DNA of 64,000 bases from the human T2T-CHM13v2.0 reference genome, Homo sapiens, in the NCBI RefSeq assembly GCF_009914755.1, contig NC_060939.1, one strand, 5' to 3'. Positions 32,761-57,094 of this stretch are shown piece after piece (the stretch's first letter is position 1; each line of letters begins with the position of its first letter). The position numbers and the translations under genes are program-made. Under the pieces are notes generated by a model. The model had not been told where the DNA came from. It saw nothing but the letters and a program-made list of their open reading frames with translations, and searched no databases.

Positions 32761-32930
32761 TGTGAAAATGAGTACAATTTCCCATAGATAGGTAAGGAAA
32801 GAAAAGATTTTTTATATATATATTTTTATATATATATATTTTTATATATGTTTATATATATAAAAATATATATATATATAAAATCTTTTCTTTCCTTACC
32901 TATCTATGGGAAATTGTACTCATTTTCACA
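32761..32930. repeat. Perfect 50-bp inverted repeat around a 70-bp AT spacer
   Basis: 32761-32810 is the exact reverse complement of 32881-32930. Confidence 0.98.
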
Positions 32931-46071: not shown

Positions 46072-46086
46072 GCCATGCAAGTAAAG
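46072..46086 (+). CDS. RYR3: RYR3 15-nt cassette micro-exon AMQVK (counterpart of the RYR1 ASI 5-aa exon)
   Basis: TACTGAC branch-like motif, pyrimidine tract of about 35 nt, acag|GCCATGCAAGTAAAG|gtacag. Symmetric phase 0; fills the gap between KSKMSK and SGGQDQERK. Confidence 0.9.
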
Positions 46087-51982: not shown

Positions 51983-52095
51983 GTGGAACAGCCTTTGAGG
52001 TCCAAGAAGGCCGTCTGGCACAAACTGTTATCAAAGCAACGGAAACGGGCAGTGGTGGCCTGTTTCAGGATGGCCCCTCTCTACAACCTGCCCAG
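51983..52095 (+). CDS. RYR3: RYR3 exon, 113 nt, calmodulin-binding segment: [37 protein letters not shown](R); ends at a GC donor
   Basis: atctcttctcag acceptor; CAG|gcaagt non-canonical donor, required for phase 2. Confidence 0.95.
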
Positions 52096-53132
52096 GCAAG
52101 TATTTTGTCTTTTTTCCTGGCATGTAAGCCAGCGATGGGAATGGAGGTATCCTCCCACAGCTGTGCTCTCTCACTCTTAATCCAAGGAATAGAAATTGGA
52201 ATCCTTGGCCTATGGAGCTATTGCAGTCTGCATAGTATAAGGGCCTGGCTAAGACAATCAAGGTAAGCATAAAAACTGAAACCAGATGAGATTCTCTAGA
52301 GCCCATTCCTGTCAGGCTCACCATTTGTACCCTAAAGTCAGCCAAGTAAGCATATGGAAGTACACTACTTTTGCTGAGGTGGGATTCTTGGTTAGCATGT
52401 AAAGACTTCTGGAAAAAGAGAAACTGTTTTCTGAAACATTTTACCCCAAATTCCATCAACAGTTCCAATAGTATTTCTCTGCTCAGGAACTTGACACTGA
52501 AATTACCATTTCCTCAGCAGGTACAGAAATGTAACTTGAAAATCTTTTAGCACAGTGTACTAGCTGTCAAAATATAGAAAGGCTGCAGATGCCTCAAGAG
52601 GCTTGCCAGAGGCACGATGCCTTCGGGTGTTTCAGCTTATACTTTGAAGTAAAATGTATTTGAAGCTTTTGCTGAAAAGTCTGGGACATATCCTTGTCAA
52701 CATAGGGAATAGTATCAGTGACAGACTGGCCCAGAGTTGACCACCCAGACCGATTCAGTGTCTTTGGTGATGTGGTGACATTCCTGTCCTCAGACTTATT
52801 GCAGAGTAGGTATGGTCAGGTCTTGGGTCAATAAACAAAGCTGGTAATTGAATATCAGCCTCTGCTTCACTGACTTATCAAATCAGTAGGAATATTCTCA
52901 CTTGCTCAGGGAAATTAAACTGACTTAGACAAGTATACTCTGAAGCTTATGTAAATAAATGTGTTTCTTTGGAATATCACATAAAGGACTATTCCTATGC
53001 TTGACATTTTGTTTTCATCAAATTGTGGATCTTGGCCATCATTTGTCCAGAGTAGCCTATAACCTCGTCCTGAGCCAACTGGCCACCTGGGCTTTCTTAG
53101 GGTCTTTGAAGATAGTTAAGAATGATGGTCTC

Positions 53133-53703
<571 letters not shown>

Positions 53704-54350
53704 TCATGAATGAAAAGATGAAAAGCTCAAGCAGTCATGGGCGTTAAGGCTGCTGAAGTCGTAACAGAAAAGTGAAATTCATAGCCCGTTAGAAAAAGCA
53801 AAAGTGCATAGAATTTGTCTTTGTTTTCTGGAAGTGTCGAAACATCAGAAAGTGTTTCCTTCCCTATCTGATTGAGATTTCTACCTGACATTGTGCTGAG
53901 TTGGCCTTCGAAAGAGCCTAGCTCGAAAGCACATGTCTCTGGGACCAGGACAGCTAGGCAGAAATTACATCTCTCAAAAACAAGCATTTTTTTCTAAATC
54001 CACTGAAGATATTAGTACCATCCTTACATATCTGGGCTGCACCTTCAGTAGTTTTACTCTGTATGGGTAAGAGTAAGTCTAGGAATTCACTATGTCCTTC
54101 ATGAAGCATGACCGTCCCTAACTCAGTTGTTTTAGAGGGGCTGCTATGGGTGATCTCTCTAGCATGGAGGACTGTAAGTAGATTTCATAACAACAGAGAA
54201 GCTGATGATGGAGACAACTTCTCTTCTCCACCTTGTGATCATCTAACCGCATAGAATCTCCCAAACTAAAGGGCTAAAGGGATTTGTTTTATTATGGGAA
54301 ACTGTCTCTGATGCTAGTTTTTAAAAGAAAACTTGTATGCTTCTCTCCAG

Positions 54351-54450
54351 ACACAAAATTAATAATTTCTTCCTGAGCACCTTTCAACAAGTTTGGCTGG
54401 AAAAGGTTAATGAAAAAACTCAGTATGACAGGCTTATACCCATTTTAATG
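54351..54450 (+). CDS. RYR3: Alternative (mutually exclusive) RYR3 exon 'A', 100 nt: (R)HKINNFFLSTFQQVWLEKVNEKTQYDRLIPILM
   Basis: ttctctccag acceptor; ATG|gtaatg donor; open in phase 2 to 0; peptide aligns with the 55379-55475 exon. Confidence 0.85.
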
Positions 54451-54536
54451 GTAATGTAACCTGTGGAGAGACCTGCTCATTCTCTGCACACTCCTCCTTT
54501 ATTGACCATGATTTAACGTTACCATAAGAACACGAA

Positions 54537-55286
54537 TTTGTACAATTTTTAGGAAGAATTCTGATTGGTCAGACTTGAAGAAAGATGGCAAGGGCTGTGT
54601 CCTACCGAAAACCATGACCGGAGTTTAATGGCTCTGGTGTTGACTTTTATCTTCCTCCCCTCTCCTTCCCTCCTCACCACTGTCCTCACATTTTGTAAAC
54701 ACTTGGCTGCTTTTGCTTTGCAGTGGCTAATATTCCCAGAAGTCAATCCTGGCTTATCGGGAGTGGCTCATGCCAGTTATTCAGTGCACCCACATACCAG
54801 GGACATAGCTAGAATCCATGCGGCACACAGAAAATATGCCAACGACGTAACGTGCTTAAACCTTGTCGTGCTAAGTAAAAGCTGGAGCACTTTACCACTG
54901 TGGTTACTTGGAGAATGAAAAGAAGCCACATTTTGGTATTTTGGTATCTCTAAGATGAAACCACTGATCATCGGTATGACTTAGATTGGATTACCTAGAA
55001 GGGTGATCAGCCTAAAGGAATACCTAAATTGCCATATGAAGCAAATACTTCAGGACTGTTACTTGGCCTAATGATTGATTTCTCATTGGAGAGGAAATGT
55101 GATAAAGAGCCTATGAGAACAGAGTAGGATTACAGATAACTGCCATGTCTTGCTAACCATTGTCATTTTCAGAAGGTGCTCTAATATTCAAGACTCGTCA
55201 TGGTAGAGGGTTCTGGTTTCTTTGAAGTGAGTTCTGTGGTATGCTACTGGCTACCCTGACCAATCAGAAGACAAGAATTGTACAAA
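54537..55286 (+). promoter_or_regulatory. Putative long-range pre-mRNA stem between the mutually exclusive exons
   Basis: 54559-54572 complements 55256-55269 (14/14); 54537-54547 complements 55276-55286 (11/11); nested 54611-54626 with 55191-55204. Confidence 0.65.
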
Positions 55287-55378
55287 AGTCTGTCCTGCTT
55301 ACTAACCATTAACTGCCCAAACTAAAAGAACAAGTTCCATGGATCCCTCTTGACCTCCCTCTCACCCCTTCCGCTCAG

Positions 55379-55475
55379 GCACCGCTCTATTAACCTCTTC
55401 CTCCATGGCTATCAGAGATTTTGGATAGAAACAGAGGAGTATTCCTTTGAAGAGAAACTAGTACAGGATTTGGCT
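55379..55475 (+). CDS. RYR3: RYR3 exon 'B', 97 nt (canonical type): (R)HRSINLFLHGYQRFWIETEEYSFEEKLVQDLA
   Basis: cccttccgctcag acceptor; GCT|gtaagt donor; phase 2 to 0. Confidence 0.96.
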
Positions 55476-57094
55476 GTAAGTACTGACTCCCCTGGGAGCA
55501 GATATGAGTGTGGATGAATTTGATTTTCGAATTCATGTGTGTGGTTGTAACAGTTAAACATTCACAAGGAATCGTGTGTATACATTTGAAAAGCACTAAC
55601 TGTGTAAGTGCTCAGGGGAGGCCCTGCTAATGGTCATAGGAGCCAGAGGATGAATTTTCACTTGGAGTTGCTAATACTGTCATCGTCCTCCTCATTGTCG
55701 CTGTTAACAACTAATATTTCTTAAAATGCACCGCCATGTCATGGGGGGTTCATGCTAAGTGAAGTTTTGAGCACCACTGGTTGCAGGAGGCCACCCCAGC
55801 CAAAGCCCCACGTTCCTACTCTGTAGTTCTGCTTTGGGGAAGATGCATCTAGATACCCTTCCTGCATCTTACATTTCTATATTTGGCCTTTCAGAAAATT
55901 TGGCATGCCTTGTCTCTAACAGACTTCATGCTCTAAAGCCACTTAAAATGACACAAGAGGGGAAAACTTACTGCAGAGGTGCCACAGAGCCTCATTCTGG
56001 TTCAGAGAGAAAATAAACCCTCCTTCTCTTTGGCCAGCCCTGTGGTTCTTTTTCTCCTTCTCCCACGAACCTTTTTCTCTTACCACTCACTCTCTCCGTT
56101 CATCTTGTCCTGTGTTTCTGATAGTCACTTTTTTCTAAATGTCTTTCACTTTCTATCTTTCCCTGTCACCCTCTGTTTCTTTCCTTCTTTTTTAAAGCCT
56201 TTTCCTATTGTTTTCTTTCCCTTTGTCTTTATGTCTTTCATTCTTCCCATATATTCCTGTTGGTGAGAAAGACACTCCGTTGGTTTTCTCAGTTTCTTGA
56301 TGAGTGTGAAGTTGACAATGAGCGTCACTTCAGCCCTCTACTTCTTCTGAACCATTCATACAACCCATGTAGTTCTCACCAATTTACCAAATACGGTCCA
56401 CCCTGCTGGCTCTGCCACTGCTAGAAAATTCACTTTTACCTCTGACATTAGCTGTTATTTCTCTTTCCATGAAAAGCGATAAAGAAAAGACCTGATAAAA
56501 GGAGAAGGGCAAGGCCTGCAGCTCCAGGATGGCAGCTCTCAGGAGCAACAAGAATTTTAGAATCAAGAGTTAGGTCAGGAAAGAGAGATGTTTTGCTGGG
56601 TTGAATCTAGAATAGTATTAGACCCAAAATGGCCCCACTGCTTTGTAACTCTTGCCCCACCTCCATGTCCAGCCCAGCCCTTCAAAAGAAATGTCAGCTG
56701 TTGGCCTGAGAGAGCAGTCTCTCAGGTGTCTCTGTGGGGTTTTCCTCCTGAACTCGGGTGCCCAGAGCTTGCATGAGAGGTCAGCTGATTGGAGTCTGTA
56801 GCTATTCCCTTTATGGGCAGCCTTTTGCTTTTTATTTTGTTTTAACCTGAAATTGGAATGTTTCTTTGGTTGGCTGTAAAAATAAAAAATATACAAACAT
56901 ATATACACATGTATCTCAAACCTCGCACCTTTAGGGCTTCTATCCTGAAATAAATACATGACGTAGTGGTTTTGTTTTGTGCTTTAGTCTGATGCACTCT
57001 GTGCCTTGCGCTTTACCTTCTCTTTGTTCGCATGCCAGTCACGTGGCACGAGATTAAATTCATGCCTAAAACCTATCTGTGTTGGTTTGTGTAG

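What the first reader, a model, noticed from the sequence alone, without database searches (positions are those of the whole stretch)
54537..55286. Nested long-range RNA duplex closing the intron between the two mutually exclusive exons
Seen: TTCTGATTGGTCAG (54559-72) is the exact reverse complement of CTGACCAATCAGAA (55256-69). Just outside it, TTTGTACAATT (54537-47) complements AATTGTACAAA (55276-86). That stem extends by TTT/AAG (one G-U) up to an 8x3 internal loop. Collinearly inside, ACCATGAC[CG]GAGTTT (54611-26) pairs with AGACTCGTCATGGT (55191-204). Weaker nested matches continue (ggctct, tttatc, ttcctc at 54630-57 versus 55088-111). The sequence is not Alu or L1. Folding would loop out about 680 nt of the 928-nt intron, leaving 86 nt to donor A and 92 nt to acceptor B. 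Established: RNA pairing controls mutually exclusive splicing in Dscam1, 14-3-3 and FGFR2. Inference: this is a structure-based switch for RYR3 exon choice, which I do not know to be described. It is my best candidate for a novel system here.
Basis: partly seen in the sequence, partly recalled or inferred. Interest (0 to 1): 0.85.

Follow-up and report, generated by a model that had tools for sequence, protein, structure and literature searches.

The report
Long-range RNA stem between RYR3 alternative exons
A short inverted repeat found nowhere else in the human genome should fold the intron between two alternative RYR3 exons into a stable 28-base-pair stem, a good but untested candidate for a splicing control element.

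Summary
The sequence observation holds. 54559-54572 and 55256-55269 are perfectly complementary (14/14). 54537-54550 and 55273-55286 match 13/14, and the one mismatch is a sense-strand U-G. An 8x3 internal loop separates the two helices. The core duplex is -36.1 kcal/mol. Both helices have pairing probability 0.92-0.997 in three sequence contexts. Only 2 of 4000 and 1 of 4000 dinucleotide shuffles reach the observed long-range inverted-repeat score.

The arm unit (14-mer, gap of 12 or fewer, 10-mer) occurs exactly twice in 3.1 Gb, and those two places are the arms. The intron is single copy, with no target-site duplication, so this is not a transposon relic.

The third inner helix and the 6-mer matches exist as letters but are not predicted to form (p about 0.001 to 0.07). 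The intron as a whole folds no better than shuffles (z = -0.58).

The two exons are true homologous mutually exclusive exons: 13 RefSeq mRNAs carry A, 4 carry B, none carries both. Exon A is 32/33 identical to mink RyR3.

No second partner exists, so this is not a Dscam-type docking/selector system. It resembles the FGFR2 IAS2-ISAR stem.

Cross-species conservation and any effect on splicing could not be tested here. Function is inferred (about 0.45). A neutral local inverted duplication is the main rival.

The parts
54351..54450 (+). Exon A (100 nt), the upstream member of the mutually exclusive pair. It encodes 33 aa directly after the calmodulin-binding segment.
   Evidence: Present alone in 13 of 17 RefSeq mRNAs, all XM models. 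In frame. 32/33 identical to residues 3495-3527 of the RyR3 cryo-EM chain 9c1e, which is mink RyR3.
54448..54457 (+). 5' splice site of exon A, predicted to pair with 54516-54525 in a 10-bp local helix with one G-U.
   Evidence: Pair probabilities 0.78-1.00 in the 1125-nt context. Mean P(unpaired) is 0.03 with the long-range stem, 0.13 with the left arm blocked and 0.35 with the right arm blocked. In a 400-nt local context it is 0.35, rank 13 of 22 exons.
54516..54525 (+). 3' strand of the local helix that covers the exon A donor. It lies 11 nt 5' of the left arm.
   Evidence: (pair I5).
54537..54550 (+). Left arm, outer helix (14 nt).
   Evidence: 13/14 complementary to 55273-55286; the mismatch is U-G on the sense strand. 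Mean pair probability 0.92-0.96.
54551..54558 (+). The 8-nt side of the internal loop.
54559..54572 (+). Left arm, inner helix (14 nt, perfect). It contains an inverted CCAAT.
   Evidence: 14/14 with 55256-55269. Mean pair probability 0.996-0.997.
54573..55255 (+). The 683-nt looped-out part of the intron. Single copy, with ordinary CpG content.
54611..54626 (+). Complementary to 55191-55204 but predicted to fold locally with 54630-54648 instead.
   Evidence: p about 0.001. MFE partners are local. Enforcing the helix costs +6.1 kcal/mol.
55191..55204 (+).
55256..55269 (+). Right arm, inner helix (14 nt, perfect). It contains CCAAT.
   Evidence: This 14-mer occurs 154 times in the genome against 13 for the reversed control.
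55273..55286 (+). Right arm, outer helix (14 nt).
   Evidence: The 31-nt right arm is unique in the genome at 3 or fewer mismatches.
55300..55313 (+). TACTAAC branch-site-like heptamer, with ACTAAC followed 3 nt later by TAAC. It starts 13 nt after the right arm and lies 73 nt before the exon B acceptor.
   Evidence: Motif scan and sequence. Its role as a branch site or as a QKI-type site is inference from recalled consensus motifs.
55349..55378 (+). Second branch-like site (CTTGAC), a C/T-rich polypyrimidine tract and the AG acceptor of exon B.
55379..55475 (+). Exon B (97 nt), the downstream member of the pair. It is the form shared with RYR2 and RYR1.
   Evidence: Present alone in 4 of 17 mRNAs, including both NM records. 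66% identical to the RYR2 exon and 48% to the RYR1 exon.

Best explanation
The intron between the two homologous, mutually exclusive RYR3 exons carries a genome-unique bipartite inverted repeat. The arms are 54537-54572 and 55256-55286. In the pre-mRNA they pair into two 14-bp helices separated by an 8x3 loop, worth about -36 kcal/mol.

The stem loops out 683 nt. It puts the donor region of exon A, which sits in a local hairpin ending 6 nt before the stem, next to the branch-site region of exon B, where TACTAAC starts 13 nt after the stem.

I take it to be an RNA bridge of the FGFR2 IAS2-ISAR type. By joining the two ends of the inter-exon intron, it lets factors bound near the exon B branch point and polypyrimidine tract act on both exons at once, which couples repression of one exon to use of the other. 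The thermodynamic model adds that stem formation deepens occlusion of the exon A donor. That would favour B once the right arm has been transcribed, and so make the choice sensitive to elongation rate, helicases or double-strand-binding proteins.

Shown: the complementarity, its non-randomness, its uniqueness, the predicted stability and the mutually exclusive exon annotation. Inferred: that the stem forms in vivo, that it is under selection, and the direction of any effect on splicing.
For: - Complementarity is exact.
- It is non-random: 2 of 4000 and 1 of 4000 shuffles reach the observed score.
- The arm unit occurs only twice in 3.1 Gb, and the 31-nt arm is unique at 3 or fewer mismatches.
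- The intron and both arms are single copy. The same tool finds 66 matches from 1100 candidates for an old MITE used as a positive control.
- There is no target-site duplication and no complementarity beyond the arms. The repeat therefore consists of two clean blocks with non-complementary sequence between and around them. That pattern suits maintained helices better than an evenly decayed duplication.
- The core duplex is -36.1 kcal/mol and is the best partner in the window by 6.7-10 kcal/mol.
- Pairing probability is 0.92-0.997 in three contexts. Blocking the left arm costs 17.9 kcal/mol.
- The one mismatch in the core is a sense-strand U-G.
- The exons are a real mutually exclusive pair: 13 A, 4 B, 0 both of 17 mRNAs. 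They are homologous peptides, and exon A is used in mink RyR3.
- Precedent: FGFR2 IAS2 and ISAR form a stem that activates IIIb and represses IIIc (passage of PMC2471395). Introns flanking mutually exclusive exons are more conserved than other introns of the same genes (passage of PMC6071210).
Against: - I have no conservation or covariation data, because no other vertebrate genome was available.
- The whole intron folds no better than shuffles: z = -0.58.
- Patchy closing stems of equal bp count occur in 7 of 134 shuffled MFEs.
- With 100-nt arms, RNAduplex gives equally low energies with unrelated neighbouring introns: -64.5 and -67.2 against -65.4/-66.6.
- A stem inside an intron usually helps removal of that intron. 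Here that would join A to B (197 nt, a frameshift), and no RefSeq model contains such a product.
- There is no GCATG in 54300-55560, so the FGFR2 cofactor logic does not carry over directly.
- The 5'-splice-site occlusion effect is a model prediction. In a local context the exon A donor is unremarkable, rank 13 of 22.
- The 14-mer is a common genomic word, 154 against 13, which makes a chance match somewhat less unlikely.
- No paper links QKI to RYR3 splicing.
Confidence: 0.45

Rival explanations
1. A neutral local inverted duplication. A short piece of the intron (about 36 nt) was copied in reverse about 700 nt away, for example by a template switch during replication or repair, fairly recently in the primate lineage. 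The RNA may fold, but this has no regulatory consequence.
For: The arms are related to each other and to nothing else in the genome, as a local duplication would be. With 27 of 28 helix positions Watson-Crick, the event could be young. There is no evidence of constraint in CpG content. No competing partner or known regulator motif such as GCATG is present. The whole-intron fold is ordinary.
Against: The complementarity stops abruptly on both sides. It is interrupted by an 8x3 non-complementary patch between two near-perfect blocks. That needs a complex extra event in a duplication otherwise almost unmutated. The location, symmetric between two mutually exclusive exons (86 and 92 nt from the splice sites), would be a coincidence.
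Confidence: 0.36
2. Terminal inverted repeats of an old, neutrally decaying DNA transposon or MITE.
For: An inverted repeat enclosing about 750 nt is the shape of a non-autonomous DNA element. The annotation's repeat mask misses Alu-like and MER5-like elements, so being unmasked proves little.
Against: The intron and both arms find only themselves in the genome (one first-look candidate each). A MER5-like MITE control gives 66 matches at 73-90% identity. The arm unit is found only at the two arms. No direct repeat flanks it: 451 of 2000 shuffles reach the best flank match.
Confidence: 0.05
3. A DNA-level element. Two CCAAT boxes in opposite orientation, each next to a TGTACA palindrome, would act as paired binding sites (NF-Y type) of an intronic enhancer or promoter, with the RNA complementarity as a by-product.
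For: The perfect 14-mer contains CCAAT and is about 12-fold more frequent in the genome than its reversed control, 154 against 13. That is typical of a word used as a binding site or carried by repeats.
Against: RefSeq lists no functional element between 52000 and 58000. CpG observed/expected is 0.30, and 24% of window tiles are equal or higher. A binding-site explanation does not require the second block to be mirrored at the matching offset.
Confidence: 0.06
4. Chance complementarity.
For: Real DNA has a heavier tail than shuffles. In about 215 kb of unmasked control sequence, single blocks of 15-17 nt with scores of 29-30 occur a few times. My first null was reached by 171 of 3000 and 414 of 3000 shuffles. 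The 14-mer is a common word.
Against: The null was inflated by short-range palindromes that cross the diagonal. Restricted to long range, 2 of 4000 and 1 of 4000 shuffles reach the score. The two-block unit occurs nowhere else in 3.1 Gb. All 7 control loci scoring 32 or more were repeats, simple sequence or short-range hairpins.
Confidence: 0.04
5. A Dscam/14-3-3/ATE1-type competing-structure system, in which one docking site chooses between selector sequences next to each exon.
For: The exon pair arose by tandem duplication. According to passages of PMC6071210 and PMC10790352, tandem duplication can create competing arms.
Against: There is no second copy of either arm. Only hits with 3 or more mismatches were found, at or below the chance count: 7 found against 10.2 expected. 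The best alternative partners are 6.7-10 kcal/mol weaker and lie elsewhere in the window. The stem encloses no exon.
Confidence: 0.04

Closest known systems
FGFR2 IAS2 (ISE-2) - ISAR (IAS3) stem in the intron between exons IIIb and IIIc
   Same: Two short complementary elements lie inside the intron that separates two mutually exclusive exons, one downstream of the first exon and one upstream of the second. They form a stem that loops out several hundred nucleotides and encloses no exon. Per the passage of PMC2471395, the stem activates IIIb and represses IIIc. The titles of Muh 2002 and Baraniak 2003 were seen in reference lists. The loop size of about 700 nt in FGFR2 is recalled, not seen.
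   Different: FGFR2 works with GCAUG/Fox sites next to ISAR, and no GCATG occurs here. FGFR2 function was shown by mutation and compensation, whereas nothing is shown here. The RYR3 stem is longer (28 bp in two helices) and sits 13 nt from a consensus-like branch site.
[quoted passage not shown] 2021, PMC8052449)
   Same: An intronic long-range pair less than 10 kb apart, lying inside one intron, which is the configuration they find enriched (passages). I recall -36 kcal/mol falling in their most stable energy class; I did not see the class limits.
   Different: A PCCR requires both arms to lie in conserved sequence, which I could not test. The catalogue is in supplementary and online tables that I could not open. 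RYR3 is not mentioned in the main text (0 occurrences).
Docking-site/selector competing structures (Dscam1, 14-3-3 zeta, Mhc, ATE1)
   Same: RNA pairing in the introns of a tandem-duplicated mutually exclusive exon cluster (passages of PMC10790352; abstract of PMC7797038).
   Different: Those systems have one element with two or more alternative partners, and each pairing loops out exons. Here there is a single pair and no exon in the loop.
5' splice-site hairpins such as MAPT exon 10 and SMN2 exon 7 (recalled)
   Same: The exon A donor is predicted to sit in a 10-bp local helix.
   Different: The predicted occlusion is average for this gene in a local context, rank 13 of 22. It becomes strong only when the long-range stem is present in the model.

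Membership tests
FGFR2-type intra-intronic stem / RNA bridge between mutually exclusive exons | Two complementary elements both lie inside the intron separating the two mutually exclusive exons | tested here: met
   The arms at 54537-54572 and 55256-55286 lie between exon A (ends 54450) and exon B (starts 55379).
FGFR2-type intra-intronic stem / RNA bridge between mutually exclusive exons | The elements form a stable duplex in the transcript | tested here: met
   Prediction only: -36.1 kcal/mol and pairing probability 0.92-0.997 in three contexts. There are no in-cell data.
FGFR2-type intra-intronic stem / RNA bridge between mutually exclusive exons | Disrupting the pairing changes exon choice and compensatory changes restore it | not testable with these tools
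   This needs a minigene or an antisense experiment.
FGFR2-type intra-intronic stem / RNA bridge between mutually exclusive exons | The stem brings a regulator binding site (GCAUG in FGFR2) close to the regulated exon | tested here: inconclusive
   There are 0 GCATG in 54300-55560. A TACTAAC/ACTAAC...TAAC site lies 13 nt 3' of the right arm. Whether any factor binds there is unknown.
Docking-site/selector competing RNA structures | One element is complementary to two or more alternative partners, one per exon variant | tested here: not met
   No further copy at 2 or fewer mismatches in 64 kb. Hits at 3 mismatches number 7 against 10.2 expected. The next-best duplexes are -29.4 and -26.0 kcal/mol, at unrelated places.
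Docking-site/selector competing RNA structures | Pairing loops out the non-selected exon(s) | tested here: not met
   The loop 54573-55255 contains no annotated exon.
PCCR (conserved complementary regions) | Complementary regions of at least about 10 nt with a stable duplex, no more than 10 kb apart, in one gene | tested here: met
PCCR (conserved complementary regions) | Both arms lie in evolutionarily conserved intronic sequence | not testable with these tools
   No other vertebrate genome or conservation track was available, and supplementary tables were closed.
DNA transposon / MITE | Further copies of the element or its ends elsewhere in the genome | tested here: not met
   Self-hit only. 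The positive control gave 66 matches.
DNA transposon / MITE | Target-site duplication flanking the terminal inverted repeats | tested here: not met
   The best direct match of the 50-nt flanks is reached by 451 of 2000 shuffles.
Steric-hindrance mutually exclusive exons | The donor of the upstream exon lies less than about 50 nt from the branch point of the downstream exon | tested here: not met
   The linear distance from 54451 to 55305 or 55353 is about 850-900 nt. With the stem closed the path is still 86 + 19 nt. The 50-nt limit is as stated in PMC5740500 (passage).
Frame-based exclusion (nonsense-mediated decay) | Including both exons, or neither, shifts the reading frame | tested here: met
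   100 + 97 = 197 nt, and both lengths leave remainder 1 modulo 3. This alone can explain why no coding model has both exons.
Rfam families | A match at or above the gathering score | tested here: not met
   There were 5 matches at E = 3.5-9.8, all far below gathering.

The most novel reading that the evidence does not exclude
The stem is one part of a compact three-element junction: a hairpin over the exon A donor, the 28-bp long-range stem, and a consensus branch site or QKI-like bipartite site 13 nt beyond the stem. This junction would work as a co-transcriptional switch. Until the right arm is made, the exon A donor is relatively open. Once the stem closes, the donor is clamped shut, and one protein-binding site next to the exon B branch point comes within reach of both exons. 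A single tissue-specific factor, or the elongation rate, would then set which 32-33-residue segment follows the calmodulin-binding site of RyR3. That would be a vertebrate ion-channel exon choice made by RNA architecture rather than by separate enhancers and silencers for each exon.
Probability: 0.18. Interest if true: 0.7.

Novelty: new member of a known kind. Interest (0 to 1): 0.5.

Why it matters
The two exons encode alternative versions of the segment that directly follows the calmodulin-binding peptide of the ryanodine receptor. The upstream exon matches the 30-residue RyR1 peptide chain 2bcx_B and RyR1 residues 3610-3645. That 2bcx is the calmodulin complex is recalled.

Exon B is the RYR1/RYR2-like form and is the one in both curated human mRNAs. 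Exon A is the form in the mink RyR3 whose structure was solved. How cells choose between them is not described in any paper I could find.

Few vertebrate mutually exclusive exon pairs have a demonstrated RNA-structure mechanism. The main text of the human survey PMC5740500 names only CD55 as a candidate (passage). A clean, unique 28-bp stem placed symmetrically between the exons is a cheap target to test, by checking an alignment and then running a minigene. If real, it would add a channel gene to a short list. It would also offer an antisense handle for shifting RyR3 isoforms.

Tried and rejected
**First shuffle null.** I aligned the intron against its own reverse complement. The observed score was reached by 171 of 3000 and 414 of 3000 shuffles. 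I rejected this as a test of long-range pairing because alignments that cross the diagonal (short hairpins and palindromes) are counted double. I replaced it with split alignments that require a loop of at least 100 nt.

**Own triangular Smith-Waterman.** It gave the same observed scores but was too slow; searches hit the time limit.

**Loose-gap alignments of the two intron halves (second and third schemes).** These chain 58-70 tiny blocks and sit in the linear regime, with shuffle maxima of 29.5 and 486 against observed 31.5 and 508. They are not meaningful evidence of extended arm homology.

**RNAduplex with 100-nt arms.** It does not discriminate: any 2-kb neighbour gives -50 to -67 kcal/mol.

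**Count of bp in the closing stem of the MFE.** It does not discriminate either: 7 of 134 shuffles reach 40 bp.

**Real-DNA background.** I planned 1 Mb and obtained only 200 kb. The empirical bound is therefore weak. There were 7 control loci scoring 32 or more in about 163 kb (12 of 520 segments). All were repeat-like or short-range on inspection. Calling two of them Alu-like is from recall. The MER5-like one was confirmed as multi-copy. The 187-nt inverted repeat in L016 was not identified.

**Repeat mask.** It covers only 17.7% of the window, so an unmasked stretch says little.

**Rfam.** Nothing.

**An exon A-like exon in RYR1 or RYR2.** None in the genome search, and none in the 1.5 kb upstream of their B-type exons.

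**CpG or promoter-like signal.** None.

**Target-site duplication.** None.

**Dating exon A by protein search.** Not possible: the word search accepts only proteins of 0.55-1.75 times the query length, and joined exons may not be typed. I used the PDB sequence search instead.

**Papers.**
- Passages seen: PMC9741552 (RYR3 is named once, as having a tandem-duplicated exon substitution), PMC8052449, PMC6071210, PMC5740500, PMC7404189 (reference list only), PMC10790352, PMC2471395, PMC11452665 and PMC13215552.
- PMC8373072 has 0 occurrences of RYR3.
- Baraniak 2003 (PMC309649) is not held.
- Supplementary tables of PMC8052449 and PMC9741552, which I could not see, may already list this pair of regions or the age of the exon pair.

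**Correction.** My first notebook entry gave 12 A / 5 B. The count is 13 A / 4 B.
Full report
**What is there**

I read 54301-55520 and ran an inverted-repeat search on 54351-55475.
- 54559-54572 is the exact reverse complement of 55256-55269, with 683 nt between the arms.
- 54537-54550 pairs with 55273-55286 at 13 of 14 positions. The exception is T54548 against G55275, a U-G wobble on the sense RNA.
- The two helices are separated by 8 nt (54551-58) on one side and 3 nt (55270-72) on the other.
- The stem begins 86 nt after the exon A donor and ends 92 nt before the exon B acceptor.
- 54611-54626 is complementary to 55191-55204, with a 2-nt bulge and one U-G.
- The three 6-mers at 54630-57 are complementary to 55091-55111 (two coordinates I used were wrong).

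**The exons**

In the RefSeq table, 17 RYR3 mRNAs cross this region.
- 13 contain only 54351-54450 (exon A, 100 nt). All 13 are XM models.
- 4 contain only 55379-55475 (exon B, 97 nt). These are both NM records and two XM models.
- None contains both exons. One non-coding model skips both.

Both exons keep the reading frame when used singly. Using both, or neither, shifts it.

The peptides are homologous: 41% identity over the first 17 residues, E = 0.004 within the locus. Exon B has counterparts in RYR2 (66%) and RYR1 (48%). Exon A has no counterpart elsewhere in the genome, nor in the 1.5 kb upstream of the RYR2 and RYR1 exons.

Exon A is not a prediction artefact. It is 32/33 identical to residues 3495-3527 of the RyR3 chain in PDB 9c1e/9c1f, which the paper describes as mink RyR3 (passages of PMC11452665). 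The exon B peptide matches RyR2 and RyR1 chains but not that RyR3 chain.

The preceding exon matches the 30-residue RyR1 peptide 2bcx_B and RyR1 residues 3610-3645. I recall these as the calmodulin-binding peptide. PMC9741552 names RYR3 among genes with tandem-duplicated exon substitutions (passage).

**Is it more than chance?**

My first null was flawed (171 of 3000 and 414 of 3000 shuffles reached the score) because short palindromes are counted twice. With arms required to be at least 100 nt apart, 2 of 4000 and 1 of 4000 dinucleotide shuffles reach the observed gapped score.

In real DNA:
- The feature is the second-best locus among 242 window segments. The best is a 170-nt palindrome at 32761-32930.
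- In 200 kb of control chr15 gene sequence, 12 of 520 segments, in 7 loci, score 32 or more.
- On inspection these are Alu-like pieces, a MER5-like MITE, a 187-nt inverted repeat, a palindromic tandem repeat, an AT-rich short hairpin and simple sequence.

The strongest evidence is genome-wide. The 31-nt right arm is unique at 3 or fewer mismatches. The pattern of the 14-mer, up to 12 bases, then the 10-mer occurs exactly twice in 3.1 Gb: once on each strand, at the two arms.

Against this, the 14-mer alone is a common word, at 154 copies against 13 for its reversed control. It contains a CCAAT box.

**Is it a repeat element?**

The whole intron, the left arm region and the right arm region each find only themselves in the genome, with one first-look candidate each. 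The same tool returns 66 matches at 73-90% identity, from 1100 candidates, for an old MITE taken from a control locus.

The 50-nt flanks hold no direct repeat (451 of 2000 shuffles reach the best match). They hold no further complementarity either (1899 of 2000). Rfam gives nothing near any threshold.

**Does it fold?**

The intron as a whole is not unusually stable: -242.3 kcal/mol, z = -0.58, and 5 of 20 shuffles fold as well. The antisense strand gives z = +1.04. Random sequences also close with patchy long-range stems; 7 of 134 shuffles have 40 bp or more.

The two outer helices, however, are in both the MFE and the centroid structure.
- Their pairing probability is 0.92-0.96 and 0.996-0.997 in contexts of 928, 1125 and 1525 nt.
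- Together they are worth -36.1 kcal/mol, and each is the other's best partner in the window by 6.7-10 kcal/mol.
- Forcing the left arm single-stranded costs 17.9 kcal/mol.

The third helix has p of about 0.001. It costs 6.1 kcal/mol to enforce, because 54611-54626 prefers a local hairpin with 54630-54648. The 6-mers have p of 0.07 or less. The supported structure is one bipartite stem, not a nested series.

**What kind of system?**

There is no second partner for either arm, and the loop holds no exon. The Dscam, 14-3-3 and ATE1 logic of competing pairings that loop out exons does not apply.

Steric hindrance does not apply either. The distance from donor to candidate branch points is about 850-900 nt in the linear sequence and at least 105 nt with the stem closed.

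Frame disruption alone can explain why no coding transcript has both exons.

The closest precedent is FGFR2, where IAS2 and ISAR, both in the intron between IIIb and IIIc, form a stem that activates one exon and represses the other (passage of PMC2471395). Intra-intronic long-range pairs are the configuration enriched among conserved pairs in human genes (passages of PMC8052449).

**Mechanism I commit to, and its status**

I propose an RNA bridge. Closing the stem puts the exon A donor region beside the exon B branch region. The donor region is itself a hairpin whose 3' strand ends 6 nt before the extended stem. In the branch region, TACTAAC starts 13 nt after the stem, with a following TAAC that together resemble a bipartite QKI-type site (motif recalled). 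Factors bound at one site could then act on both exons.

In the thermodynamic model the exon A donor is paired (10 bp, p up to 1.0). Its mean unpaired probability is 0.03 with the stem, 0.13 with the left arm blocked and 0.35 with the right arm blocked. This suggests that stem closure disfavours A.

This is inference from a folding model. In a local 400-nt context the exon A donor is average, at 0.35 and rank 13 of 22. No GCATG is present, and no paper connects QKI with RYR3 splicing. A simple expectation also points the other way: an intron-closing stem should help join A to B, a product that no RefSeq model shows.

**What could not be done**

No other vertebrate genome, conservation track or RNA-contact data were available, and supplementary tables were closed. 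The central question, whether the arms are conserved with compensatory change, is open. I found no paper that describes an RNA structure in this RYR3 intron (searches; also 46, 73).

**Verdict**

This is a real, strong, genome-unique stem in exactly the place where such elements are known to act. It is not a transposon and not chance. The inner nested helices are not supported.

Function is plausible but unshown (about 0.45). The main rival is a neutral local inverted duplication (about 0.36). If it is functional, it is a new member of a known kind.

Noticed in passing
window 32761-32930: A 170-nt palindrome. The outer 50 nt on each side (32761-32810 and 32881-32930) are perfectly complementary, and the stretch as a whole is 92% identical to its own reverse complement. 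The AT-rich core has many relatives elsewhere in the genome, including a tandem array on chromosome 8 (143 matches).
   Followed up: partly
window 54399-54411 and 55389-55401: Exon A and exon B contain a 13-nt stretch complementary at 12 positions (pair I4). By my rough estimate about 0.4 such matches are expected by chance in this region, so it is probably meaningless. It was not tested further.
   Followed up: no
window 52093-52101: The exon just upstream of the alternative pair, which encodes the calmodulin-binding segment, has a GC rather than GT donor (CAG|GCAAGT). I recall such donors being rare and often linked to alternative splicing.
   Followed up: no
window 55256-55269 and genome-wide: The 14-mer of the right arm, which contains a CCAAT box, occurs 154 times in the genome against 13 for its reversed control. 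I did not determine which repeat family or binding-site class carries it.
   Followed up: partly
window 54843-54868: Four CpG dinucleotides within 26 nt in the middle of the loop, in a predicted small hairpin. The intron's overall CpG content is ordinary.
   Followed up: no
L016:1944-2497 (chr15:46,752,091-46,752,644): A control locus holds a 187-nt inverted repeat with a spacer of about 200 nt (score 270). It is unmasked in the annotation and I did not identify it.
   Followed up: no
annotation file, masked_repeat rows: The repeat mask covers only 17.7% of the window and 18.5% of 200 kb of control sequence. It misses Alu-like and MER5-like elements, so an unmasked stretch in this file is not evidence of unique sequence.
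   Followed up: yes
window 46072-46086: An annotated 15-nt coding micro-exon of RYR3. I recall a 5-residue alternative insertion described for human RYR3. It was not examined.
   Followed up: no
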